A stretch of 8,623 nt of DNA from a virus. Lineage: Duplodnaviria > Heunggongvirae > Uroviricota > Caudoviricetes. Where the stretch lies: IMG/VR virus record IMGVR_UViG_3300029085_000036; one strand, given 5' to 3'. Each line of letters begins with the position of its first letter. The stretch's first letter is position 1. A program made the translations under genes and the position numbers. This document shows, piece after piece, positions 1 to 8,573 of this stretch. The notes under the pieces were generated by a model, which was not told where the DNA came from, did no database searches, and saw only the letters and a program-made list of their open reading frames with translations.

Positions 1-1
1 T

Positions 2-1444
2 AGCCATATTGAAGGGGCGAGCAAACAAAGTGATTTTGTCCAGGCGGGTCATCAGTATGGTTTTAATAACTTATTAACGCTGTATGGTGGCTCGATGGTC
101 GCGAATAATTATTACGCGTTCACTTTGGGGACTGGCTGGAATACACGCATTGGTGCCATTTCCGTCGATGCCACGAAGTCGCATAGTAAACAAGACAACG
201 GCGATGTGTTTGACGGGCAAAGTTATCAAATTGCCTACAACAAATTTGTGAGCCAAACGTCGACACGTTTTGGTCTGGCGGCCTGGCGTTATTCGTCGCG
301 TGATTATCGGACATTTAATGATCACGTATGGGCAAACAATAAAGATAATTATCGCCGTGATGAAAACGATATCTATGACATTGCCGATTATTACCAGAAC
401 GATTTTGGCCGTAAAAATAGCTTCTCTGCCAATATGAGTCAGTCATTGCCAGAAGGCTGGGGTTCTGTGTCCTTAAGTACGTTATGGCGAGATTACTGGG
501 GGCGTAGCGGCAGCAGTAAGGATTATCAGTTGAGTTATTCCAACAACCTGCGAAGGATAAGCTATACCCTCGCGGCAAGCCATGCTTATGACGAGAATCA
601 TCATGAAGAGAAACGTTTTAATATTTTTATATCGATTCCCTTTGATTGGGGTGATGACGTTACGACGCCTCGTCGGCAAATATATATGTCTAACTCAACG
701 ACGTTTGATGATCAGGGGGTTGCCTCAAATAATACGGGATTATCAGGAACCGTTGGAAGCCGGGATCAGTTTAACTATGGGGTCAACCTGAGTTATCAGT
801 ATCAGGGAAATGAAACGACAGCTGGGGCTAATTTAACCTGGAACGCGCCGGTTGCGACAGTGAATGGCAGTTATAGTCAGTCGAGTGCTTATCGACAGGC
901 TGGAGCCAGTGTTTCAGGGGGCATTGTCGCCTGGTCGGGTGGCGTTAATCTGGCAAACCGTCTTTCTGAAACGTTTGCTGTGATGAATGCGCCAGGAATT
1001 AAAGATGCTTATGTCAATGGGCAAAAATATCGCACAACAAACCGTAATGGAGTGGTGGTATACGACGGAATGACACCTTATCGGGAAAATTACCTGATGT
1101 TGGATGTGTCACAAAGCGATAGCGAAGCAGAATTACGTGGCAACCGGAAAATTGCCGCCCCTTATCGCGGCGCGGTTGTACTGGTTAATTTTGATACCGA
1201 TCAGCGCAAGCCATGGTTTATAAAAGCGTTAAGAGCGGATGGGCAACCATTAACGTTTGGTTATGAAGTCAATGATATCCATGGTCATAATATTGGTGTT
1301 GTCGGCCAGGGAAGCCAGTTATTTATTCGCACCAATGAAGTACCGCCATCGGTTAATGTGGCAATTGATAAGCAACAAGGGCTTTCATGCACAATCACCT
1401 TCGGTAAAGAGATTGATGAAAGTAAAAATTATATTTGCCAGTAA
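2..1444 (+). CDS. yehB: Fimbrial outer-membrane usher protein, C-terminal ~480 aa; 5' end lies outside the window
   Basis: Reading frame is open from base 2 with no stop and continues into the track ORF 95..1444 (stop TAA 1442-1444). Gly/Ser/Asn/Tyr-rich composition typical of chaperone-usher beta-barrel proteins. Lies directly upstream of a yehA-like gene and convergent with rcnB, matching the K-12 yehDCBA/rcnBA/rcnR arrangement as I recall it. Confidence 0.8.
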   Translation, partial: SHIEGASKQSDFVQAGHQYGFNNLLTLYGGSMVANNYYAFTLGTGWNTRIGAISVDATKSHSKQDNGDVFDGQSYQIAYNKFVSQTSTRFGLAAWRYSSRDYRTFNDHVWANNKDNYRRDENDIYDIADYYQNDFGRKNSFSANMSQSLPEGWGSVSLSTLWRDYWGRSGSSKDYQLSYSNNLRRISYTLAASHAYDENHHEEKRFNIFISIPFDWGDDVTTPRRQIYMSNSTTFDDQGVASNNTGLSGTVGSRDQFNYGVNLSYQYQGNETTAGANLTWNAPVATVNGSYSQSSAYRQAGASVSGGIVAWSGGVNLANRLSETFAVMNAPGIKDAYVNGQKYRTTNRNGVVVYDGMTPYRENYLMLDVSQSDSEAELRGNRKIAAPYRGAVVLVNFDTDQRKPWFIKALRADGQPLTFGYEVNDIHGHNIGVVGQGSQLFIRTNEVPPSVNVAIDKQQGLSCTITFGKEIDESKNYICQ

Positions 1445-1459
1445 TAGTCAGGTGGTTCT

Positions 1460-2494
1460 ATGGAAATTCGCATAATGCTATTTATAGTAATGATGATGGT
1501 TATGCCTGTGAGCTATGCGGCATGTTATAGTGAGTTATCTGTTCAGCACAATTTGGTTGTTCAGGGGGATTTTGCACTTACTCAAACACAAATGGCGACA
1601 TATGAGCATAATTTTAATGATTCGTCATGCGTGAGTACAAATACTATCACCCCTATGAGCCCGTCGGATATTATTGTTGGACTTTATAACGATACCATTA
1701 AATTAAATTTACATTTTGAATGGACAAATAAAAACAACATTACGTTGTCAAATAATCAGACCAGTTTCACCAGTGGTTATTCGGTAACGGTGACACCTGC
1801 GGCCAGTAATGCAAAAGTGAATGTTTCTGCGGGGAGCGGTGGTTCAGTGATGATTAATGGAGTTGCGACATTATCCAGTGCTTCATCATCGACACGCGGG
1901 AGTGCCGCAGTACAATTTCTACTGTGTTTATTAGGTGGTAAGTCATGGGATGCATGTGTAAATAGCTACAGAAATGCATTGGCACAAAATGCAGGTGTCT
2001 ATTCCTTTAATCTGACATTGTCATACAACCCGATAACCACAACCTGCAAACCGGACGATTTATTAATTACGTTAGAGAGTATTCCCGTTTCACAATTACC
2101 AGCCACAGGTAACAAAACAACAATAAATAGTAAAAAAGGGGATATTATTCTGCGTTGTAAAAATTTATTAGGTCAACAAAATCAAACATCACGGAAAATG
2201 CAGGTGTATTTATCAAGTTCTGACTTGTTAACCAACAGCAACACGATCCTGAAAGGTGCGGAAGATAATGGCGTAGGATTTATTCTTGAAAGTAATGGTA
2301 CGCCAGTCACACTTTTAAATATCACTAACAGCAGTAAAGGATATACGAATTTAAAAGAAATTGCGGCAAAGTCAAAACTTACAGATACAACGGTTTCAAT
2401 TCCGATAACGGCCAGTTACTACGTCTACGATACAAACAAAGTTAAATCTGGCGCACTGGAGGCAACCGCATTAATCAACGTGAAATACGACTAA
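1460..2494 (+). CDS. yehA: Fimbrial subunit/adhesin-like protein of the yeh chaperone-usher operon (344 aa)
   Basis: ATG at 1460 with a Shine-Dalgarno-like CAGGTGG 4 nt upstream. Hydrophobic N-terminal signal peptide (MEIRIMLFIVMMMVMPVSYA). Ser/Thr/Asn-rich secreted-protein composition. Length and position match YehA from memory. Followed by a strong intrinsic terminator. Confidence 0.8.
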   Translation: MEIRIMLFIVMMMVMPVSYAACYSELSVQHNLVVQGDFALTQTQMATYEHNFNDSSCVSTNTITPMSPSDIIVGLYNDTIKLNLHFEWTNKNNITLSNNQTSFTSGYSVTVTPAASNAKVNVSAGSGGSVMINGVATLSSASSSTRGSAAVQFLLCLLGGKSWDACVNSYRNALAQNAGVYSFNLTLSYNPITTTCKPDDLLITLESIPVSQLPATGNKTTINSKKGDIILRCKNLLGQQNQTSRKMQVYLSSSDLLTNSNTILKGAEDNGVGFILESNGTPVTLLNITNSSKGYTNLKEIAAKSKLTDTTVSIPITASYYVYDTNKVKSGALEATALINVKYD

Positions 2495-2549
2495 TAACAA
2501 GCAAGACGAGCAAGTGGCTAATAATAAAAATATTAAGGTGTCTGCATTC

Positions 2550-2577
2550 CCCCCTCTCTCCGAGGGGGCTTTTTTTT
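2550..2577 (+). terminator. Rho-independent terminator downstream of yehA; overlaps the rcnB stop codon on the opposite strand
   Basis: Perfect 7-bp GC-rich stem CCCCCTC (2550-2556) / GAGGGGG (2562-2568), 5-nt loop TCTCC, then C and a run of 8 T (2570-2577). Confidence 0.8.
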
Positions 2578-2914
2578 AGCGATGATAAAAAATCTCACCG
2601 TCGTAGGCTTTAATGATTTTACCGTCGGTGTCGCTGATCAACACGTACGCGCCACCCATATAGGTCCAGTGCGTCCCGGCATCAGGCGCGGGCAGGTTAC
2701 GTAACTGCCACTGCTTAATGTTGTACTCATCGGTGCGGTACATCTCTGGGACGGTGTCACCTGGTTTGAAATGCTTAAAGTCAGCAATGAAACTGCTTAA
2801 CTCATACTTAGAAATTCCCGAGGTATTGGTCGAACCCGCGGTGGCTGGTGCGGCCCAGGCGGCACTGGTAACCAGCAAAAGCGCACCCAGCAACATCTTA
2901 TTTTTAATGGTCAT
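2576..2914 (-). CDS. rcnB: Periplasmic nickel/cobalt homeostasis protein RcnB (112 aa)
   Basis: Minus-strand ORF; chosen start is the internal ATG at 2914 (MTIKNKMLLGALLLVTSAAWA signal peptide) preceded by GGAGA, rather than the upstream ATG of the 172-aa track ORF. Located downstream of rcnA on the same strand. Sequence recognised from memory as YohN/RcnB. Confidence 0.85.
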   Translation of the reverse strand: MTIKNKMLLGALLLVTSAAWAAPATAGSTNTSGISKYELSSFIADFKHFKPGDTVPEMYRTDEYNIKQWQLRNLPAPDAGTHWTYMGGAYVLISDTDGKIIKAYDGEIFYHR

Positions 2915-3030
2915 AAACTCTCCACTTTGGGGATCTGTAATATCAGTCGCATATCTTTCCTGCCATACAATATAACTGACAAGCGATATTTTGTTAGTGA
3001 TCCCATGATTTCGTAAAAAGTGTAAATGAA

Positions 3031-3051
3031 AGGATGCCCTAAAAGCATCCT
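3031..3051 (-). terminator. Putative hairpin (partial terminator or attenuator) between rcnA and rcnB
   Basis: 7-bp stem AGGATGC (3031-3037) / GCATCCT (3045-3051) with a 7-nt loop. On the minus strand it is followed by a T-rich tract (TTCATTTACACTTTTT). Function is inferred only. Confidence 0.35.
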
Positions 3052-3132
3052 TAGCGTGCAGAGAGTCAGCGGAAATAGCTGATTTAAGAATCATCCTGGG
3101 CTGAAGATAACATGCAAGCCTAAAGGATTGAG

Positions 3133-3957
3133 TTATCGCATTATGCCCATGAAGCCATGTACGCCCATATACACACCAACTAAGCCAATCAACAGACTGG
3201 AAAAATAGGGAGCGCGTTTAGCGAGAGTGTTAAATCCGCTCCAGCGTTTTGCGACCTGCTGAACGCTGATTGCTGCGCCAACGCCTACGGTGACAAGCGT
3301 TAACGCCAGGCCGAGGCTGAAACTGACGACCAGTGTTGCGCCCAGTGTCAGGGCTTTCAACTGAATGCAAATCAACAGCACGGTAATTGCTGCCGGGCAG
3401 GGGATAAGGCCACCGGTTAAGCCAAATAGCAAAATTTGCCAGTTGGTGACCTCTCTACCATCAAAGCGTCGTTTAATGTCATTGGCATGGGCTCGTGCAT
3501 GGGCATCCTGATACTCGCCATGTTCGTGATGGTGATGATGTCCATGGTCGTGGTGATCTTCGTGATCGTGGTGATGATGCTCATGATCATGCTCGTGCAT
3601 ATTCTCCAGCCAGTTGCGTTCGCCGCGCCAGGTACGCCAGAACATCCAGAACGCGGTGCTAATAATGATCACTGCGGAAATCAACTGGAGCCACGGTTCA
3701 GCTGATTGAGCAGTAAAGTGTTTGCTGATCACCATCCCGCCAAAGGCAATTAACCAGACCACTGCGGTATGCGAAATGGTTGCTGCCAGTCCGAGCATCA
3801 CCGCCTGTTTAATGGTGCCTTTGATGGCGATGATAAACGCCGCCATCATCGTTTTTGAGTGCCCCGGTTCCAGGCCATGAAGCGCACCAAGTAAGATGGC
3901 GCTGGGGATGAAGAACCAGGCGTTTCCTTGCTGAAGAAGTGTTGTAAATTCGGTCAT
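3133..3957 (-). CDS. rcnA: Nickel/cobalt efflux transporter RcnA (274 aa) with a His-rich cytoplasmic loop
   Basis: Minus-strand ORF with ATG at 3957. Multiple hydrophobic transmembrane segments and a long His/Asp/Glu-rich stretch (HEHDHEHHHHDHEDHHDHGHHHHHEH). Divergent from rcnR with RcnR operators between them. Confidence 0.95.
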   Translation of the reverse strand: MTEFTTLLQQGNAWFFIPSAILLGALHGLEPGHSKTMMAAFIIAIKGTIKQAVMLGLAATISHTAVVWLIAFGGMVISKHFTAQSAEPWLQLISAVIIISTAFWMFWRTWRGERNWLENMHEHDHEHHHHDHEDHHDHGHHHHHEHGEYQDAHARAHANDIKRRFDGREVTNWQILLFGLTGGLIPCPAAITVLLICIQLKALTLGATLVVSFSLGLALTLVTVGVGAAISVQQVAKRWSGFNTLAKRAPYFSSLLIGLVGVYMGVHGFMGIMR

Positions 3958-3994
3958 GATAATAATTCTTAGTATTAATTCGGCAATCTGATTC

Positions 3995-4029
3995 TACTCC
4001 CCCCCAGTACCTGATACTACCCCCCAGTA
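3995..4029. promoter_or_regulatory. Two RcnR operator sites in the rcnA-rcnR divergent promoter region
   Basis: TACT-CCCCCCC-AGTA at 3995-4009 and TACT-A-CCCCCC-AGTA at 4015-4029. On the opposite strand both read TACT-G6-N-AGTA, the published RcnR recognition motif. Confidence 0.85.
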
Positions 4030-4077
4030 GATTAATAGTGCTATGATTTTTCATATTCTTGTTAACCAGGTGTTGCC

Positions 4078-4350
4078 ATGTCTCATACAATCCGTGATAA
4101 ACAGAAACTGAAAGCGCGTGCCAGTAAGATTCAGGGCCAGGTCGTGGCGCTCAAGAAAATGCTCGACGAACCGCATGAATGCGCTGCAGTTTTACAACAG
4201 ATTGCTGCTATCCGTGGCGCGGTAAACGGTCTGATGCGGGAAGTGATTAAAGGCCATCTGACGGAACACATCGTTCACCAGGGGGATGAGCTAAAACGTG
4301 AAGAAGATCTGGATGTCGTTCTGAAGGTGCTGGATTCTTATATCAAATAA
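4078..4350 (+). CDS. rcnR: Ni/Co-responsive transcriptional repressor RcnR (90 aa; CsoR/RcnR family)
   Basis: ORF of 90 aa ([38 protein letters not shown]...), divergent from rcnA across the G/C-tract operators. Recognised from memory as YohL/RcnR. Confidence 0.95.
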
Positions 4351-4679: not shown

Positions 4680-5900
4680 GTGGGAAAAGCACTAAACAAA
4701 CTGAGCGATTCGACGTTAAAAAAATTGGCGGCTGTCCAGGCAGAAAAAGAGCGTTTTTACTCCGACGGGGGCGGGCTGGAGATTAAACACTCAAAGGGCG
4801 GCAAATTAACCTGGTATTTCCGGTACCGAACAGGAGGACGTGAGGTTGCTGCTGAGCGGCTAAAGTTGGGGGCTTATCCTGAATTGTCGCTGAAAGCCGC
4901 AAGGGAAAAACGCACACAGTGCCGGTCATGGCTGGCAGAGGGTAAAAACCCCCGTTATGAGTTGTGCACCACAGTAAAGGAAGCACTAAAACCCGTTACG
5001 GTGAAGGAGGCGATTAACTACTGGCTGGAGGAATACGCGAAGGATAACCGCAAAGACTACATAAAGCTGGTGCAACGTATGGATAAGCACATCATTTGCC
5101 ATATAGGGGCAATTCCCCTTGATAAGTGTGATACAAGGCAGTGGATCGCATGTTTTGACCGTGTACGAAAAAAAGCACCAGTAGCAGCGGGGCACGTCAT
5201 GCAAACCTGCAAACAAGCGCTAAAGTTCTGCCGCAGGAGGCGCTACGCGTTCAGTAATGCCCTGGACGATTTGATCGTCAGCGATGTGGGTAAGAGAGCA
5301 GAAATTCGCGAGAGAGTGCACAGCAACAGCGAATTAAAGGAAATTTTACGCGCTATTGATGGTGATGTGTTCGCGCCTTACTACAGCGCGTTAATGCGCT
5401 TGCTGATTGTGTTCGGGTGCAGAACGGCAGAGGTCAGACTTTCAGAGATCAAAGAATGGGATCTGAAAGAAATGTTGTGGACAGTGCCAAAAGAGCACAG
5501 CAAAACGAAGGTAACGATATTCAGGCCAATACCCGATGGCATTTTGCCGTTCATTCAGAAGCTGGTGGAGCAGAACCGGCATACAGGGTTATTACTCGGA
5601 GAACTGAAAAAAGATACCACGGTAGCGCAATATGGGCGAAATGCGCATAAGCGGCTTAACCAGGAACACTGGACGCTGCATGACTTTCGCCACACGTTTA
5701 CAACGATGCTGAACGATTTAGGTGTCGATCCGCATATCGTGGAGCACATCACAGCGCATCAGATGCCTGGTCAGCAAAAAACCTATAACCATTCACGCTA
5801 TTTACAGGCGAAGCGGGACGCGTTGAATCTGTGGGTTGAGCGTCTCGATGTGCTGGCTGGAAATCATGAAAATATTGTTATGCTGAAGGTGGCTAAATGA
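4680..5900 (+). CDS. int: Tyrosine site-specific integrase, P4-like (406 aa), GTG start
   Basis: GTG at 4680 is the first canonical start after an in-frame stop at 4662-4664, with AAGAGGA 7 nt upstream. N-terminal arm-binding-type region (GGLEIKHSKGGKLTWYFRYR). C-terminal catalytic-type motifs (HDFRHTF, YNHSRY). Sits next to the junction with chromosomal sequence. Confidence 0.9.
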   Translation: MGKALNKLSDSTLKKLAAVQAEKERFYSDGGGLEIKHSKGGKLTWYFRYRTGGREVAAERLKLGAYPELSLKAAREKRTQCRSWLAEGKNPRYELCTTVKEALKPVTVKEAINYWLEEYAKDNRKDYIKLVQRMDKHIICHIGAIPLDKCDTRQWIACFDRVRKKAPVAAGHVMQTCKQALKFCRRRRYAFSNALDDLIVSDVGKRAEIRERVHSNSELKEILRAIDGDVFAPYYSALMRLLIVFGCRTAEVRLSEIKEWDLKEMLWTVPKEHSKTKVTIFRPIPDGILPFIQKLVEQNRHTGLLLGELKKDTTVAQYGRNAHKRLNQEHWTLHDFRHTFTTMLNDLGVDPHIVEHITAHQMPGQQKTYNHSRYLQAKRDALNLWVERLDVLAGNHENIVMLKVAK

Positions 5901-6616
5901 AATTACCTAAAAGACTCTATTATCCGTTACCTGAAGCGGCAGAAAAGTTAGGATGTACAATAAGGGATCTCTATCATTTCGCTAGTACAGGTGCCATTGA
6001 TATTTCTGTATTTATTCCTGAGCATAGTGTTGGGAACTGTGAGGTTTATTTTCTTGAGGGATTTAAAGATAATAAACGGAATGGACTAATATTCCAGGAC
6101 GGCAAAACAATTAATTTAGAGAAGAAAGTAGATGATAGATTATATATAGCAAATTTTATTGCTGGTTTTTTCTATGTAAACAAAAAGGCGTTCTCTGATA
6201 TTGAGTTTAAACATAATAACATCATAAGCTCACCAACATTATATTTTTACCCTGATAGACTTGGCGGTGGATTAGAAATAACTCCAGAAGGGGAAAATCT
6301 CAAGCCATTTGATATAGATGTTGATTATTTATGTGTGATGGCAGATGATTTAAATAATGTAAAAGATGAAGGTAGTTTTCGTAATCTTACAGAAGATAAC
6401 CCCAAAAGAGCAGCAAAAAGGAATGAGGTTATTTACTCTTTAATTAAACTTATTCCAGAAATGGGTGATGTAGACCTAGACACGGAATCATTACCTAAAA
6501 TAGCAGATTTAATTGATTCTATAGCTGCATCCAGAGGGATAGAATTTCCCAAAACACATTGGCAGACATGGCAAAAGTATTTGGGGCGTGAATCTCAACA
6601 AAAACGCAAAAAGTGA
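5897..6616 (+). CDS. Hypothetical 239-aa cargo protein with a possible N-terminal helix-turn-helix; AT-rich, family unrecognised
   Basis: ATG at 5897 overlaps the int stop (ATGA) and has a strong Shine-Dalgarno AAGGTGG 4 nt upstream. Visibly AT-rich compared with int and alpA. The N-terminus (LPEAAEKLGCTIRDLYHFASTGAI) resembles excisionase/AlpA-type HTH. The C-terminal ~190 aa match nothing I recognise. Confidence 0.65.
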   Translation: MKLPKRLYYPLPEAAEKLGCTIRDLYHFASTGAIDISVFIPEHSVGNCEVYFLEGFKDNKRNGLIFQDGKTINLEKKVDDRLYIANFIAGFFYVNKKAFSDIEFKHNNIISSPTLYFYPDRLGGGLEITPEGENLKPFDIDVDYLCVMADDLNNVKDEGSFRNLTEDNPKRAAKRNEVIYSLIKLIPEMGDVDLDTESLPKIADLIDSIAASRGIEFPKTHWQTWQKYLGRESQQKRKK

Positions 6617-6644
6617 TATCACGTGCTGGTAGTGTGATATCACA
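6612..6644. promoter_or_regulatory. Two copies of the perfect palindrome GTGATATCAC (second extended to GTGTGATATCACAC), 9 bp apart; candidate operator or hairpin upstream of alpA
   Basis: GTGATATCAC at 6612-6621 (overlapping the cargo stop codon) and GTGTGATATCACAC at 6631-6644. A TAGAAT -10-like hexamer lies at 6666-6671. Confidence 0.5.
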
Positions 6645-6707: not shown

Positions 6708-6932
6708 ATGAATCAAAATACACAATTTCAATCACTATCAGATCGCGTAATCCGTGAGGATGAATGTCGTAAGTTAACAGGAGTGTGCCGCACTACACGC
6801 TATGAACTGGAGAAAAAAGGATGCTTTCCGTCACGTCTTAATCTGGGCGGTCGTTCTGTAGGTTGGCTGCTGTCCGAGGTTATGGAATGGGTTAAAAGCC
6901 GGGATCGCATTAATTCAGGCAAGGCAGCGTAA
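6708..6932 (+). CDS. alpA: AlpA-family phage regulatory protein / excisionase-like (74 aa)
   Basis: Small ORF with the characteristic AlpA/Vis-type pattern (...CRKLTGVCRTTRYELEKKGCFPSRLNLGGRSVGWLLSEVMEWV...). Lies downstream of int as in P4-like and CP4-57-like elements. Confidence 0.85.
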   Translation: MNQNTQFQSLSDRVIREDECRKLTGVCRTTRYELEKKGCFPSRLNLGGRSVGWLLSEVMEWVKSRDRINSGKAA

Positions 6933-6959
6933 AGGGGAGTATATGGCACATAAAACAAA

Positions 6960-6979
6960 GGCGACCGGGGGCGGTCGCC
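6960..6979 (-). terminator. Rho-independent terminator for the minus-strand small-gene pair
   Basis: Stem GGCGACC (6960-6966) / GGTCGCC (6973-6979) with a G-rich loop. On the minus strand it is followed by TTTGTTTTAT. No comparable U-tract on the plus strand. Confidence 0.55.
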
Positions 6980-7043
6980 AATGGGAATACACTAAACATA
7001 AGCCCAGCCATCATAGCGATTTGCTGGCTGGTGGGCAATGTGA

Positions 7044-7253
7044 TCAGCCTGGTGGGCGGTTCCTGTTAGCTTTCATTACCCGGGGCTGTTTATTGAGAAA
7101 CTCATCAAGCGCAAATTTTGTAGGCGCTGGTTCTGTATTTGGTGGCATTTGTTTAGCGTGTGTCTTTTCTTTCTGGCGTGCAACAATGCTCTGTAAAAGC
7201 AATCTTCGTTGTTCTGCGAAAATCTCTTCAGTGGATAGGTATTTTTTGCTCAT
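7044..7253 (-). CDS. Hypothetical small basic protein (69 aa)
   Basis: Minus-strand ORF (MSKKYLSTEEIFAEQRRLLLQSIVARQKEK...) directly downstream of the 59-aa gene and followed by the terminator at 6960-6979. Overlaps the implausible 317-aa plus-strand ORF, which I reject. Confidence 0.45.
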   Translation of the reverse strand: MSKKYLSTEEIFAEQRRLLLQSIVARQKEKTHAKQMPPNTEPAPTKFALDEFLNKQPRVMKANRNRPPG

Positions 7254-7310
7254 AGTGCCGACCTGTAAAGCAATGCGCCGGAGTACCTCACACCACAGCG
7301 CTGATAGTGA

Positions 7311-7490
7311 TTATTCTTGCTCTTTAGCCTTGCGTCGCTGGCGGTATTCAACTTCTCGCTTTAATGCTGCTGTTACAAACTGCCCTGTACTTTCACCAGG
7401 CATTTTTACCGCCTCAACATTGTTCATAACTTCATGCGGAACCCTTGCCGCAACTGTTTGTGATTTTGCGTTTACTGCTTTTGTCGCCAT
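7311..7490 (-). CDS. Small 59-aa protein, possibly a ribbon-helix-helix or YlcI/YnfO-like prophage regulator; not in the supplied ORF track
   Basis: Hand-translated from the reverse complement: MATKAVNAKSQTVAARVPHEVMNNVEAVKMPGESTGQFVTAALKREVEYRQRRKAKEQE, with stop TAA at 7311-7313. ATG at 7490 has GAGGGG about 8 nt upstream. Divergent from the early operon across the repeat-bearing control region. Family assignment is from memory. Confidence 0.5.
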   Translation of the reverse strand: MATKAVNAKSQTVAARVPHEVMNNVEAVKMPGESTGQFVTAALKREVEYRQRRKAKEQE

Positions 7491-7540
7491 GTTGTGTACC
7501 CCTCACAAAAAACAAATGCAGTATGCAGGAAAAAAAACAA

Positions 7541-7593
7541 GTGTTCAACACTTGACGTGTTCAACACCTGAGTTTAAATTGGTGTTCAACACC
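7541..7593. promoter_or_regulatory. Three copies of a dyad-symmetric 11-bp motif GTGTTCAACAC (7541-7551, 7557-7567, 7582-7592) in the divergent control region; candidate operators
   Basis: Exact repeats read from the sequence. Each is an inverted repeat GTGTT-C-AACAC. Overlaps promoter-like hexamers TTGACG (7552-7557) and TAAATT (7575-7580) on the plus strand, and TTGAAC/CATACT on the minus strand. Confidence 0.6.
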
Positions 7594-7689
7594 TTGTTGA
7601 TGCAAGGTGCAGAAACGACGAAACCCGGCAGTGCGCTAACACTAACCGGGCTTCTAACCACCAACGATAGCAAGAATATCGAGGTAGCT

Positions 7690-7896
7690 ATGAGAAATCA
7701 TACCACACACCCGCAAGGGCGGGACTCACACAACCTGAATAAATACATCTGGCGTTTTATTGCCCTGAGCACCGCACAACCGCGCGTGATTCACATTGAG
7801 GCCACCAGCGAACAGGAAGCACGCCAGCAATCCCCGGCTGGCTGCGTGATGGTATTTACTGCCCGTATTCGTCAGGGGGTGCGCCATGTGCAATAA
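7690..7896 (+). CDS. Small 68-aa protein, possibly Icd/Kil-like host cell division inhibitor; first gene of the island early operon
   Basis: Internal ATG at 7690 of the long track ORF, with GAGGT 4 nt upstream. Sequence pattern (...WRFIALSTAQPRVIHIEATSEQEARQQSPAGCVMVFTARIRQ) resembles Icd-like proteins of P4-like prophages as I recall them. Stop overlaps the start of the next gene. Confidence 0.45.
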   Translation: MRNHTTHPQGRDSHNLNKYIWRFIALSTAQPRVIHIEATSEQEARQQSPAGCVMVFTARIRQGVRHVQ

Positions 7897-8338
7897 CACC
7901 CGTCCGGACGCAGCCGCCGAAGCAATCAAAACACTGATTGATGCGCTGATTGATATTTCTGTTATCGCGGACAGGGCGCATAAGCACGCCACCAGTGAAA
8001 CAGAATATGCCGGGGCTTTCGTTCCTCACTCACTGGCTGTTATGCAACTTAGTGCTGATATGGCACTGAATGAGGCTAAAGCCATCCTGATTGCTGATTG
8101 TGAAAATGGGGGGGTTATGCGTGATGATCGTTTTAATGCCCTGAAACAGGAATTTCCCGGCGTTCCTGATGATGCGGCTGATGCGCTTTCGTCAATGCCA
8201 GAACTTATTAGAGCGGCTTTTTTCTTACTTTCCACGAGAGAATATAAATCAACGGGGCTTGATGTACTGAATATCGCCGCCGATTATGCTGATTTCGTGA
8301 CAGAGGTTATTTTAAGAAAAACGACGGACGGGGATTAA
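7886..8338 (+). CDS. Hypothetical acidic 150-aa protein of the early operon (possibly the counterpart of P4 orf151)
   Basis: ATG at 7886 with a strong Shine-Dalgarno AGGGGG 6 nt upstream. Overlaps the upstream gene stop by 11 nt. Helical, acidic composition. Confidence 0.6.
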   Translation: MCNNTRPDAAAEAIKTLIDALIDISVIADRAHKHATSETEYAGAFVPHSLAVMQLSADMALNEAKAILIADCENGGVMRDDRFNALKQEFPGVPDDAADALSSMPELIRAAFFLLSTREYKSTGLDVLNIAADYADFVTEVILRKTTDGD

Positions 8339-8339
8339 T

Positions 8340-8573
8340 ATGCGTGATATTTACCACGAAACAATAGACCGCGCATTTCTTGCACTTTCTCACAGTGAAA
8401 ACATGCTGGAAATATTGCGCATATGGCTTGAAACACTTGGCGACAATGAACGCGACAAACAAAAATCAAGAATTGCCACGGCATTAATAACGCTTCTTGA
8501 GCCTGTAATAAATGAGTTGCAGGAAATAGAGACATTACACGACCAGTATAAAGCGCCCCACACCGGAGAATAA
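8340..8573 (+). CDS. Hypothetical 77-aa protein of the early operon
   Basis: ATG at 8340, one base after the stop of the 150-aa gene (tight coupling). No recognisable family. Confidence 0.5.
   Translation: MRDIYHETIDRAFLALSHSENMLEILRIWLETLGDNERDKQKSRIATALITLLEPVINELQEIETLHDQYKAPHTGE

What the first reader, a model, noticed from the sequence alone, without database searches (positions are those of the whole stretch)
7044..7490. Convergent minus-strand pair of small genes (59-aa RHH-like plus 69-aa basic protein) with its own terminator
A 59-aa ORF missing from the supplied track (below its length cutoff) has a good ribosome-binding site, a ribbon-helix-helix or YlcI/YnfO-like character, and lies divergent from the early operon across the operator repeats. 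It is followed on the same strand by a 69-aa basic ORF and then an intrinsic terminator at 6960-6979. A small DNA-binding protein followed by a small basic protein resembles a repressor module or a compact toxin-antitoxin-like pair. The long plus-strand 317-aa ORF covering this region is probably an artefact.
Basis: partly seen in the sequence, partly recalled or inferred. Interest (0 to 1): 0.5.

Follow-up and report, generated by a model that had tools for sequence, protein, structure and literature searches.

The report
Satellite repressor cassette nested antisense
Two real small leftward genes in an E. coli phage satellite encode a likely ribbon-helix-helix repressor of the satellite's early promoter and an optional, fast-evolving small protein, both lying antisense inside a long rightward reading frame that evolution keeps open.

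Summary
Both minus-strand ORFs, their ribosome-binding sites and the terminator at 6960-6979 are real, and RefSeq annotates both genes in related strains.

The island (int, alpA, icd-like) is a PICI/cf-PICI-type phage satellite beside rcnR.

- **59-aa protein.** It is a YlcI/YnfO-family protein with a predicted ribbon-helix-helix fold. In about 25 related loci it always sits divergent from the early (icd/ash-to-primase) operon. Three palindromic repeats there overlap both promoters. Its beta-strand residues 11-15 covary one-to-one with the repeat core across six specificity classes. AlpA type and the first early gene do not. It is therefore most likely the satellite's autoregulated operator-binding repressor.
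- **69-aa protein.** It belongs to a fast-evolving family found almost only in Escherichia (92 clusters). It is always co-oriented downstream of such a gene, but is absent from many elements with the same repressor. It looks like accessory cargo, not a toxin.
- **317-aa plus ORF.** It is not simply an artefact. Its C-terminal 68 aa is the Icd/Kil-like gene. The whole frame resembles P4 eta: it starts 11 nt after alpA and is stop-free in six lineages.
- **Antisense RNA.** A conserved minus-strand hairpin suggests a small antisense RNA over the icd start.

All functions are inferred from sequence and comparison.

The parts
7311..7490 (-). 59-aa YlcI/YnfO-family ribbon-helix-helix protein; proposed operator-binding repressor of the satellite
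7044..7253 (-). 69-aa basic protein, an accessory gene co-oriented 57 nt downstream of the RHH gene; function unknown
   Evidence: Family of 92 clusters, nearly all E. coli, Shigella or E. albertii. F47, L49 and F52 are near-invariant. AF2 predicts helix 8-35, a linker and helix 48-55. Always downstream of an RHH gene where examined. No family hits.
6960..6979 (-). Intrinsic terminator closing the leftward two-gene operon, 28 nt beyond the alpA stop
   Evidence: 8-bp stem with 7 G-C pairs plus TTTGTTTTAT on the minus strand. There is no T-run on the plus strand.
7520..7548 (-). Predicted leftward promoter: -35 TTGAAC (7548..7543, inside repeat 1), 17-nt spacer, -10 CATACT (7525..7520)
   Evidence: Read from the sequence. 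A CATACT or TATACT hexamer at the same position is present in the intact upstream regions; L014, L020 and L021 are deleted or rearranged there. It scores 8/12, below the scan's 9/12 threshold, so it rests on conservation.
7541..7551 (.). Operator repeat 1 (GTGTTCAACAC, 5+1+5 palindrome), overlapping the leftward -35
   Evidence: 3 copies found against 0.13 expected.
7557..7567 (.). Operator repeat 2, in the spacer of the rightward promoter
7582..7592 (.). Operator repeat 3, just after the rightward -10 (around +1)
7552..7580 (+). Predicted rightward early promoter: TTGACG, 17 nt, TAAATT
   Evidence: Promoter scan. TTGACG is conserved at this place in the relatives.
7608..7690 (-). Candidate small antisense RNA. 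The 5' hairpin carries the anti-Shine-Dalgarno sequence of the icd-like gene. The 3' hairpin (7620-7654) plus U-run acts as terminator.
   Evidence: Fold of -36.6 kcal/mol, z = -4.8. 11 of 14 pairs show compensatory changes in 17 loci. 230 of 238 cells pair on the minus strand against 202 on the plus strand, with 28 G-U and 0 A-C. Weak Rfam symR hit, 33 bits against a gathering score of 61.
7690..7896 (+). 68-aa Icd/Kil-like gene, first gene of the early operon; nested C-terminal part of the long ORF
   Evidence: NF033153 at 65.5 bits and phrog_6196 at 5e-45. The same domain sits at the C-terminus of P4 Eta (73.3 bits).
6943..7896 (+). 317-aa eta-like bridging ORF that runs antisense through the whole leftward cassette and the operator region, in frame with the icd-like gene
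   Evidence: ATG lies 11 nt after the alpA stop, behind GGGGAG. 0 stops in this frame against 6 and 12 in the other two frames over 367 nt of sequence that is non-coding on the minus strand. The same holds in L001, L027, L002, L023 and L037. P4 eta has the same layout.
6708..6932 (+). alpA (activator/excisionase family), convergent with the cassette
   Evidence: Pfam PF05930, 1.1e-15.

Best explanation
The window carries the left end of a PICI/cf-PICI-type phage satellite integrated next to rcnR. The 59-aa gene encodes a ribbon-helix-helix dimer that binds the three GTGTTCAACAC palindromes between the divergent promoters. Binding at repeats 2 and 3, which lie in the spacer and around +1 of the rightward promoter, would keep the early icd/kil-to-primase operon off in the quiescent state. 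Binding at repeat 1, which overlaps the leftward -35, would limit the repressor's own synthesis. In this role it would be the satellite's immunity-type repressor. The 69-aa gene is transcribed with it and ends at the 6960-6979 terminator. It is an optional, rapidly diversifying cargo gene whose product probably acts by binding another protein through its helix and its FALxxFL motif. It is neither a toxin nor an obligate partner of the repressor. The whole cassette lies antisense inside an eta-like reading frame that starts right after alpA. When a helper phage turns on alpA, rightward transcription probably reads through the cassette into the early operon. Translation of that frame would protect the transcript from polarity, bypassing the repressed promoter and colliding with repressor transcription. 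Shown by computation: the fold class, the conserved architecture, the operator/beta-strand covariation and the open frame. Inferred: DNA binding, repression, co-transcription, read-through, and any role of the 69-aa protein.

For: **Architecture.** The order int-(cargo)-alpA, then the leftward RHH gene, then three repeats, then the rightward icd/ash...DUF4222-primase operon is conserved in Escherichia, Klebsiella, Pectobacterium, Xenorhabdus, Yokenella, Dryocola and Edwardsiella.

**Covariation between RHH residues 11-15 and the operator core.**
- QT[VIL]AA goes with GTGTTGAACAC.
- [KR]KLEA goes with GTGTCAGCCAC.
- QSLKS goes with GTGTGGCCCAC.
- QKLQA goes with TGGATTCCA.
- AQKKI goes with GTGCACCCCCAC-type repeats.
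- AKKNI goes with GTGCGCAC.
- Residues K9, S10 and R16 are invariant in the main YlcI-type alignment, and the outer GTG/CAC bases stay constant in the first three classes.

**Controls.** Five AlpA types and several first early genes (Icd-like, Ash fusion, unrelated) are discordant with operator class.

**Repeat positions.** The repeats overlap both predicted promoters.

**69-aa family.** Synteny is consistent, but the gene is dispensable.

**Eta-like frame.**

**Literature.** AlpA is the helper-induced activator of Gram-negative PICIs, and no global repressor is known for them (PMC6092414).
Against: - No experiment supports any step. There is no binding, expression or transcript data here.
- No Pfam RHH family is matched above threshold, and no solved structure matches by sequence.
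- The covariation involves a gene and sites less than 100 bp apart, so linkage alone keeps them together. Only about five independent class switches were observed.
- The leftward promoter scores only 8/12 to consensus.
- The eta-like frame is closed in L003, L005-7, L011 and L026, so read-through protection cannot be universal.
- Published work describes these elements as unidirectional and AlpA-activated, with no need for a repressor.
Confidence: 0.62

Rival explanations
1. The 69-aa protein is a functional partner of the RHH protein, such as a co-repressor, an anti-repressor or a sensor that couples repression to a helper-phage signal, rather than independent cargo.
For: In the loci examined where the upstream gene could be read, family members lie directly downstream of an RHH gene in the same orientation. 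One locus has two tandem RHH-plus-partner modules. RHH and partner are exchanged together as a cassette in the same island backbone. The basic C-terminal tail of the RHH protein is conserved and could be a docking site.
Against: The same or near-identical RHH protein with the same operators occurs without any partner, in Edwardsiella L026 and in L002, L003 and L008-L023. A 78%-identical partner allele goes with an RHH of another specificity class that differs at most residues. No coevolution between the two is visible.
Confidence: 0.2
2. The pair is a type II toxin-antitoxin module: the RHH protein is the antitoxin and the 69-aa protein is the toxin.
For: The gene order (small DNA-binding protein first, small basic protein second) and autoregulatory repeats resemble TA loci. 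The closest structural matches of the RHH model are antitoxin DNA-binding domains: TacA2, CopA_SO, VapB12 and MazE9.
Against: No toxin or defence family is matched. The predicted structure is a single long helix plus disordered regions, not a toxin fold. The RHH protein has no domain beyond the RHH core and a short basic tail to neutralise a toxin. The RHH protein is conserved without the partner in most genera. A 57-nt spacer separates the genes rather than overlapping or abutting them. The repeats sit on the satellite's early promoter.
Confidence: 0.06
3. The repeats are bound by another protein (AlpA or the Icd/Kil-like product), and the 59-aa protein has a different job.
For: AlpA is a DNA-binding activator of these islands (PMC6092414). 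PHROGs label the Icd-like family 'transcriptional repressor'.
Against: AlpA type and the first early gene change independently of the repeat sequence, whereas the RHH class never does. The PHROG label most likely traces to the old protein annotation of P4 cI, which covers the same ORF and is now attributed to an RNA (PMC10111431).
Confidence: 0.05
4. Only the plus strand is coding here. The minus-strand ORFs are shadows of the 317-aa gene.
For: The plus frame is open and has the same pairwise dN/dS (0.27) as the minus frame. PGAP annotates only the plus ORF in strain CEA106S.
Against: The plus-frame protein has no homologues apart from its Icd-like end. The reading frame over the conserved hairpin differs between loci. 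The frame is closed in six loci, while the minus-strand RHH protein is conserved with invariant residues over seven genera. Substitutions follow position 3 > 1 > 2 in the minus frames, which is 1 > 3 > 2 in the plus frame.
Confidence: 0.02

Closest known systems
Bacteriophage P4 immunity region (vis - eta with nested kil - cI RNA - epsilon - alpha)
   Same: An AlpA-family gene is followed by a long ORF that starts at or near its stop. That ORF spans an internal early promoter and ends in an Icd/Kil-like domain just before the next early gene. NF033153 scores 73.3 bits in P4 Eta and 65.5 bits here. A primase operon lies downstream. In P4, translation of eta/kil prevents premature termination (PMC10111431; primary work by Forti et al. 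1999, cited from memory).
   Different: P4 immunity is an RNA (CI with seqA/seqC). No C4 or isrK Rfam match is found here, even at E up to 1. Here a leftward protein cassette (RHH plus partner) with three protein operators sits antisense inside the eta-like frame. The P4 record annotates no such genes. Pairwise similarity of the Kil-like parts is weak (BLASTP E 0.46).
Phage P22 immI (Mnt and Arc ribbon-helix-helix repressors, sar antisense RNA) and P1 immI (c4 RNA - icd - ant)
   Same: A small RHH repressor is transcribed divergently from an operon whose first gene appears to be covered by a small antisense RNA. The first gene here is Icd-like, as in P1 (comparison from established knowledge).
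   Different: No sequence match to Arc or Mnt families. There are three palindromes rather than one Mnt operator. The element is a satellite, not a phage. The antisense RNA is only predicted.
Stl/Rpr master repressors of Gram-positive PICIs (SaPIs)
   Same: Same position and logic: a leftward regulator divergent from the excision/replication operon, next to int, keeps the island quiescent (PMC6092414).
   Different: Stl proteins are large helix-turn-helix proteins relieved by helper-phage proteins. Here the candidate is a 59-aa RHH protein, and induction in this lineage is reported to need AlpA. Gram-negative PICIs were described as unidirectional, with no known repressor.
YlcI/YnfO family (NF041551; Pfam DUF3950), named after E. 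coli K-12 DLP12 and Qin prophage genes
   Same: The 59-aa protein passes the NCBIfam cut-off. Related cassette alleles (L023, L033-35, L037) also hit Pfam DUF3950 or NF041551.
   Different: The window protein itself does not hit Pfam DUF3950. No function for the family was found in the searchable literature.
RHH antitoxins of type II toxin-antitoxin systems (TacA2, CopA_SO, VapB12, MazE9 N-domain)
   Same: These are the best structural matches of the model, with a small autoregulating DNA-binding protein encoded first in a two-gene operon.
   Different: There is no toxin-binding extension, no recognisable toxin, the partner is dispensable, and the operators control a satellite early promoter.

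Membership tests
YlcI/YnfO family (NCBIfam NF041551) | Score above the curated cut-off of the family model | tested here: met
   59.7 bits against a cut-off of 30, residues 9-50 covering the whole 42-position model.
Pfam DUF3950 (PF13132) | Score above the gathering threshold | tested here: not met
   No hit for the window protein. The more distant allele in L023 does pass (29.9 against 25).
Ribbon-helix-helix (Arc/MetJ/CopG) superfamily | N-terminal strand, helix A, G-x-S/T turn, helix B | tested here: met
Ribbon-helix-helix (Arc/MetJ/CopG) superfamily | Sequence match to a curated RHH family | tested here: not met
   Only sub-threshold hits in a few members (CB_ParB_C 0.15, PSK_trans_fac 0.03). 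No PDB sequence match.
Ribbon-helix-helix (Arc/MetJ/CopG) superfamily | Dimer whose paired strands read repeated or palindromic operators | tested here: inconclusive
   Three 5+1+5 palindromes are present, and the strand residues covary with their core in six classes. Dimerisation and binding could not be tested.
Type II toxin-antitoxin module | Second gene encodes a recognisable toxin | tested here: not met
   No Pfam, NCBIfam, PHROG or PADLOC hit. The model is a helix, a disordered linker and a short helix.
Type II toxin-antitoxin module | The two genes occur as an obligate pair | tested here: not met
   The RHH gene occurs without the partner in L002, L003, L008-L023 and L026.
Type II toxin-antitoxin module | Growth inhibition by the toxin, neutralised by the antitoxin | not testable with these tools
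   Needs expression experiments.
P4-type eta/kil nested genes | Long ORF starting at the stop of the AlpA/Vis gene and ending in a Kil/Icd-like domain | tested here: met
   The ATG at 6943 lies 11 nt after the alpA stop, behind GGGGAG, and NF033153 covers residues 268-311. In P4, the eta ATG overlaps the vis stop, and NF033153 covers residues 146-193.
P4-type eta/kil nested genes | CI immunity RNA with seqA/seqC targets inside the ORF | tested here: not met
   No C4 or isrK match in the window at E up to 1.
P4-type eta/kil nested genes | Translation of the frame prevents transcription termination | not testable with these tools
   Only indirect support: 0 stops in frame against 5-19 in the other frames, in six lineages.
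PICI / cf-PICI phage satellite | int, alpA, a primase/replication module and, for cf-PICI, its own capsid and packaging genes | tested here: inconclusive
   The window holds int and alpA only. The same backbone at the same site in strain CEA106S continues into primase, SSB, capsid, protease, portal, TerS and TerL. Strain 405 shows primase and a protease/capsid fusion.
SymR-like antisense RNA (Rfam RF01809) | Score above the gathering threshold | tested here: not met
   33.4 bits against 61. The resemblance is in layout only.

The most novel reading that the evidence does not exclude
The 59-aa RHH protein is the missing master repressor of Gram-negative PICIs and cf-PICIs. It would come in at least six exchangeable immunity specificities. 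Its cassette is encoded antisense inside a translated eta-like frame, so both strands are read. AlpA-driven read-through would flip the switch by transcriptional interference, while a cis-antisense RNA holds down the Icd/Kil-like gene. The partner family would then be a repressor-linked arms-race gene expressed in the quiescent state.
Probability: 0.3. Interest if true: 0.75.

Novelty: new variant of a known kind. Interest (0 to 1): 0.58.

Why it matters
Published descriptions of Gram-negative phage-inducible chromosomal islands say they are transcribed in one direction and have no known global repressor, with AlpA as the only regulator (PMC6092414). This locus, and about 25 relatives in seven genera, show a conserved leftward RHH gene whose DNA-reading residues track the operator sequence at the early promoter. 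That gives a concrete candidate repressor with predictable immunity classes. It can be tested in existing cf-PICI and PICI systems by binding assays and residue swaps. The locus also links these islands mechanistically to P4 through the eta/kil-like nested frame. It gives a clean example of a frame kept open on one strand while the other strand encodes the conserved proteins, which affects annotation: PGAP picks different strands in different strains. Finally, the fast-evolving partner family is an unexplored set of small proteins expressed next to the repressor, a position where phages often keep exclusion or counter-defence genes.

Tried and rejected
- **Family searches on the 69-aa protein.** Pfam, NCBIfam, PHROGs and PADLOC gave nothing. 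An exhaustive phmmer search of 1.84 billion representatives found only 5 relatives. Only a profile of synteny-derived relatives opened up the family.
- **Sequence search of the RHH profile against PDB.** Only chance hits.
- **Pairwise dN/dS to decide the coding strand.** Uninformative: 0.27 in both the minus frame and the in-phase plus frame. Codon-position counts were used instead.
- **Fold search for the 69-aa model.** Not run, because a single helix plus disorder gives meaningless matches.
- **Locating the characterised EcCICFT073 island in CFT073 by coordinates.** This landed on a lambdoid prophage. The cf-PICI preprint gives no coordinates. So it is not established whether the prototype islands carry this cassette.
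- **tblastn of the Icd-like protein against phages.** It did not find P4. The link to P4 was made through the shared NCBIfam domain.
- **Locus L030.** It has a partner-family gene under a 341-aa opposite-strand ORF, but no RHH gene could be read upstream of it. It was left out of the counts.
- **A minus-strand promoter-like hit at 7269..7241.** Rejected, because its -10 lies inside the 69-aa ORF.
- **Literature searches.** Searches for YlcI, YnfO, DUF3950, satellite plus ribbon-helix-helix, and EcCICFT073 plus repressor found no functional description.
Full report
**Observation.** The window contains a 59-aa ORF at 7311-7490 and a 69-aa ORF at 7044-7253, both on the minus strand.
- Each has a purine-rich ribosome-binding sequence 8 nt before the ATG.
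- The 69-aa product is basic, with pI 10.3.
- A strong minus-strand terminator-like hairpin with a T-run lies at 6979..6960.
- Three exact copies of GTGTTCAACAC lie at 7541, 7557 and 7582, between the pair and the rightward genes. Shuffles expect 0.13 copies, and none of 200 shuffles reached 3.
- RefSeq annotates both minus genes in related strains, as 'YlcI/YnfO family protein' and 'hypothetical protein'.

The description at the given coordinates is therefore correct.

**Context.** Positions 1-4350 are chromosomal: the yehB/yehA fimbrial genes and rcnB, rcnA and rcnR. From 4680 onward there is a tyrosine integrase, a 239-aa protein of unknown function and an AlpA-family gene. The leftward pair follows, and then an Icd-like gene.

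Strain CEA106S has the same backbone at the same site. There it continues into DUF4222, primase, SSB, PerC, capsid, protease, portal, connectors, HNH, TerS and TerL. The island is therefore a phage satellite of the PICI/cf-PICI kind.

**The 59-aa protein.**
- It passes the NCBIfam YlcI/YnfO model at 59.7 bits against a cut-off of 30. It also matches phrog_949.
- No Pfam family is matched.
- It has 74 homologue clusters in Escherichia, Salmonella, Klebsiella, Pectobacterium, Serratia, Proteus, Xenorhabdus and others.
- The alignment shows an invariant G-E-S turn between two helices and a polar/hydrophobic N-terminal segment.
- The AlphaFold model (pLDDT 81) has helices at 19-28 and 35-58.
- Sequence searches against solved structures found nothing.

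I accept the RHH fold at moderate confidence.

**Conserved architecture and covariation.** In loci from seven genera the gene always sits divergent from the early operon. That operon runs from icd-like or ash, through DUF4222, to primase. The gene is convergent with alpA or with cargo genes.

The roughly 200-bp intergenic region keeps the same layout in almost all of them. That layout is a TTGACG -35, three repeats, a CATACT/TATACT -10 for the leftward gene, and a hairpin. L014, L020 and L021 are partly deleted or rearranged there.

The repeat core differs between groups of loci, and residues 11-15 of the protein differ with it:

| Residues 11-15 | Operator core |
|---|---|
| QT[VIL]AA | GTGTTGAACAC |
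| [KR]KLEA | GTGTCAGCCAC |
| QSLKS | GTGTGGCCCAC |
| QKLQA | TGGATTCCA |
| AQKKI | GTGCACCCCCAC-type |
| AKKNI | GTGCGCAC |

K9, S10 and R16 are invariant in the main YlcI-type alignment. The outer GTG/CAC bases of the repeat stay constant in the first three classes.

By contrast, five unrelated AlpA types are distributed across these classes. The first rightward gene (Icd-like, an Ash fusion, or unrelated) also varies within a class. The protein that reads the repeats is therefore most likely the RHH protein.

There is a caveat. The gene and its sites are adjacent, and only about five independent class switches are seen.

**Promoters.**
- The rightward promoter is TTGACG (7552-7557), 17 nt, TAAATT (7575-7580). 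Repeat 2 lies in its spacer and repeat 3 over the start region.
- The leftward promoter, read from the sequence, is TTGAAC (7548..7543), 17 nt, CATACT (7525..7520). Its -35 lies inside repeat 1.

This is the geometry of a repressor that shuts the early promoter and limits its own synthesis.

**The 69-aa protein.** Single-sequence searches found almost nothing.

The genes downstream of the RHH gene in other E. coli loci share a motif, (K/R)FAL(E/D)xF(L/V)xK, and often an N-terminal EIFAEQRR helix. A profile search then found 92 clusters. All named ones are from E. coli, Shigella or E. albertii, are 57-80 aa long, and are annotated as hypothetical.

The model is a confident helix at 8-35, a proline-rich disordered linker, a short helix at 48-55 and a basic tail.

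In the loci examined where the upstream gene could be read, members lie directly downstream of an RHH gene. One locus has two such modules in tandem.

However, several observations argue against an obligate pairing:
- The gene is missing from elements with the same RHH protein. One example is an Edwardsiella element whose RHH protein is identical over 58 residues.
- A 78%-identical allele accompanies an RHH protein of another specificity class.
- There is no toxin or defence family match.
- The RHH protein has no extra domain with which to neutralise a toxin.

I therefore read the gene as optional cargo co-expressed with the repressor, and I rate the toxin-antitoxin idea as unlikely. Its actual function remains unknown. 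My best guess is that it binds a phage or host protein through its helical motif.

**The plus-strand ORF.** The last 68 codons (7690-7896) are a real Icd-like gene (NF033153; phrog_6196).

The same domain ends P4 Eta, the 199-aa ORF whose start overlaps the vis stop. In P4, eta and its nested kil are translated, and that translation controls termination (PMC10111431).

Here the 317-aa frame starts 11 nt after the alpA stop, behind GGGGAG. It ends overlapping the next gene's start.

Over sequence that is non-coding on the minus strand, this frame has 0 stops. The other two frames have 6 and 12. The counts for the other lineages are:

| Locus | Stops in this frame / other two frames |
|---|---|
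| L001 | 0/5/12 |
| L027 | 0/11/19 |
| L002 | 0/19/17 |
| L023 | 0/15/16 |
| L037 | 0/8/13 |

Several of these lineages carry different cassette alleles.

In L002 and L023 the start is coupled to the stop of the upstream gene. In L001 and L037 it lies about 10 nt downstream of it, and in L027 57 nt downstream.

Against a protein-coding role for the N-terminal part:
- The amino-acid sequence is not conserved.
- The frame over the conserved hairpin differs among loci.
- Six loci have the frame closed.
- Substitution patterns show that protein-level constraint lies on the minus frames.

The frame seems to be selected to stay open, not to encode a conserved protein. PGAP annotates the plus ORF in CEA106S and the minus genes in strains 405 and CE10.

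**Antisense RNA.** The minus strand of 7605-7692 folds into two hairpins at -36.6 kcal/mol, z = -4.8.
- The 3' hairpin (7620-7654) is followed by a T-rich run.
- It keeps 11 of 14 pairs through compensatory changes in 17 loci.
- 230 of 238 cells pair on the minus strand, with 28 G-U and no A-C. Only 202 pair on the plus strand.
- The 5' hairpin contains the complement of the icd Shine-Dalgarno sequence and start codon.
- An extended -10-like TGGTATGAT sequence lies just upstream on the minus strand.
- Rfam gives only a sub-threshold SymR match.

This suggests a cis-antisense RNA controlling the Icd/Kil-like gene. It is not proven.

**Model.** In the quiescent island, the leftward promoter makes the RHH repressor and the 69-aa protein. 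The repressor holds the early promoter and its own promoter. The antisense RNA damps any leak of the Icd/Kil-like gene.

When a helper phage induces alpA (PMC6092414), rightward transcripts from alpA pass the one-way terminator. They are translated through the bridging frame and enter the early operon, while opposing leftward transcription. These steps are inferred.

**Novelty.** The searchable literature gave no function for YlcI, YnfO or DUF3950, and no RHH repressor in phage satellites. Gram-negative PICIs are described there as unidirectional and without a known repressor. The genes themselves are already annotated, and the parts (RHH repressor, eta/kil, antisense RNA) are known kinds. The combination is a new variant.

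Noticed in passing
window 7605-7692 (minus strand): A conserved two-hairpin RNA lies antisense to the Shine-Dalgarno sequence and start of the Icd/Kil-like gene. Its 3' hairpin plus U-run has strand-specific covariation (28 G-U, 0 A-C). It gives only a weak SymR-like Rfam hit, below threshold.
   Followed up: partly
window 6943-7896 (plus strand): The 317-aa ORF behaves like P4 eta with a nested kil. It starts 11 nt after alpA and is stop-free in six lineages, although it runs antisense through two genes and an operator region.
   Followed up: yes
L037 11634-12400 (E. coli CEA106S, same island backbone and integration site): A different allele of the whole cassette replaces the window's: a 65-aa DUF3950-type RHH gene, a 58-aa partner and GTGCGCAC operators. 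PGAP annotates only the opposite-strand 247-aa ORF there.
   Followed up: partly
L026 6001-6183 (Edwardsiella hoshinae): The RHH protein is identical to the window's over residues 1-58, with near-identical operators, in another genus. The element has a different AlpA and no partner gene, which suggests recent inter-genus spread or module exchange.
   Followed up: partly
L005 4001-5125: Two RHH-plus-partner modules lie in tandem. The second RHH is Arc-like (FQFRLDPDLREKM) and scores below the YlcI/YnfO cut-off (20 bits).
   Followed up: no
window 6613-6622 and 6634-6643: Two exact GTGATATCAC palindromes lie 21 bp apart, just upstream of alpA. They are candidate regulator sites at the alpA promoter.
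   Followed up: no
window 5897-6616 (plus strand): A 239-aa ORF has a start that overlaps the integrase stop (ATGA). It matches no family in Pfam, NCBIfam or PADLOC. It occupies the cargo slot between int and alpA, which holds unrelated genes in other elements.
   Followed up: no
L027 2789-3011 (E. coli CE10): PGAP calls the 5' end of the bridging ORF a partial Icd-like pseudogene. This hints that the cassette was inserted into, or duplicated with, an Icd-like gene.
   Followed up: no
window 7886-8338 and 8340-8573 (plus strand): The next early genes (150 aa and 77 aa) match only PHROGs of unknown function (phrog_2512 and phrog_2196). The first one overlaps the icd stop by 11 nt.
   Followed up: no
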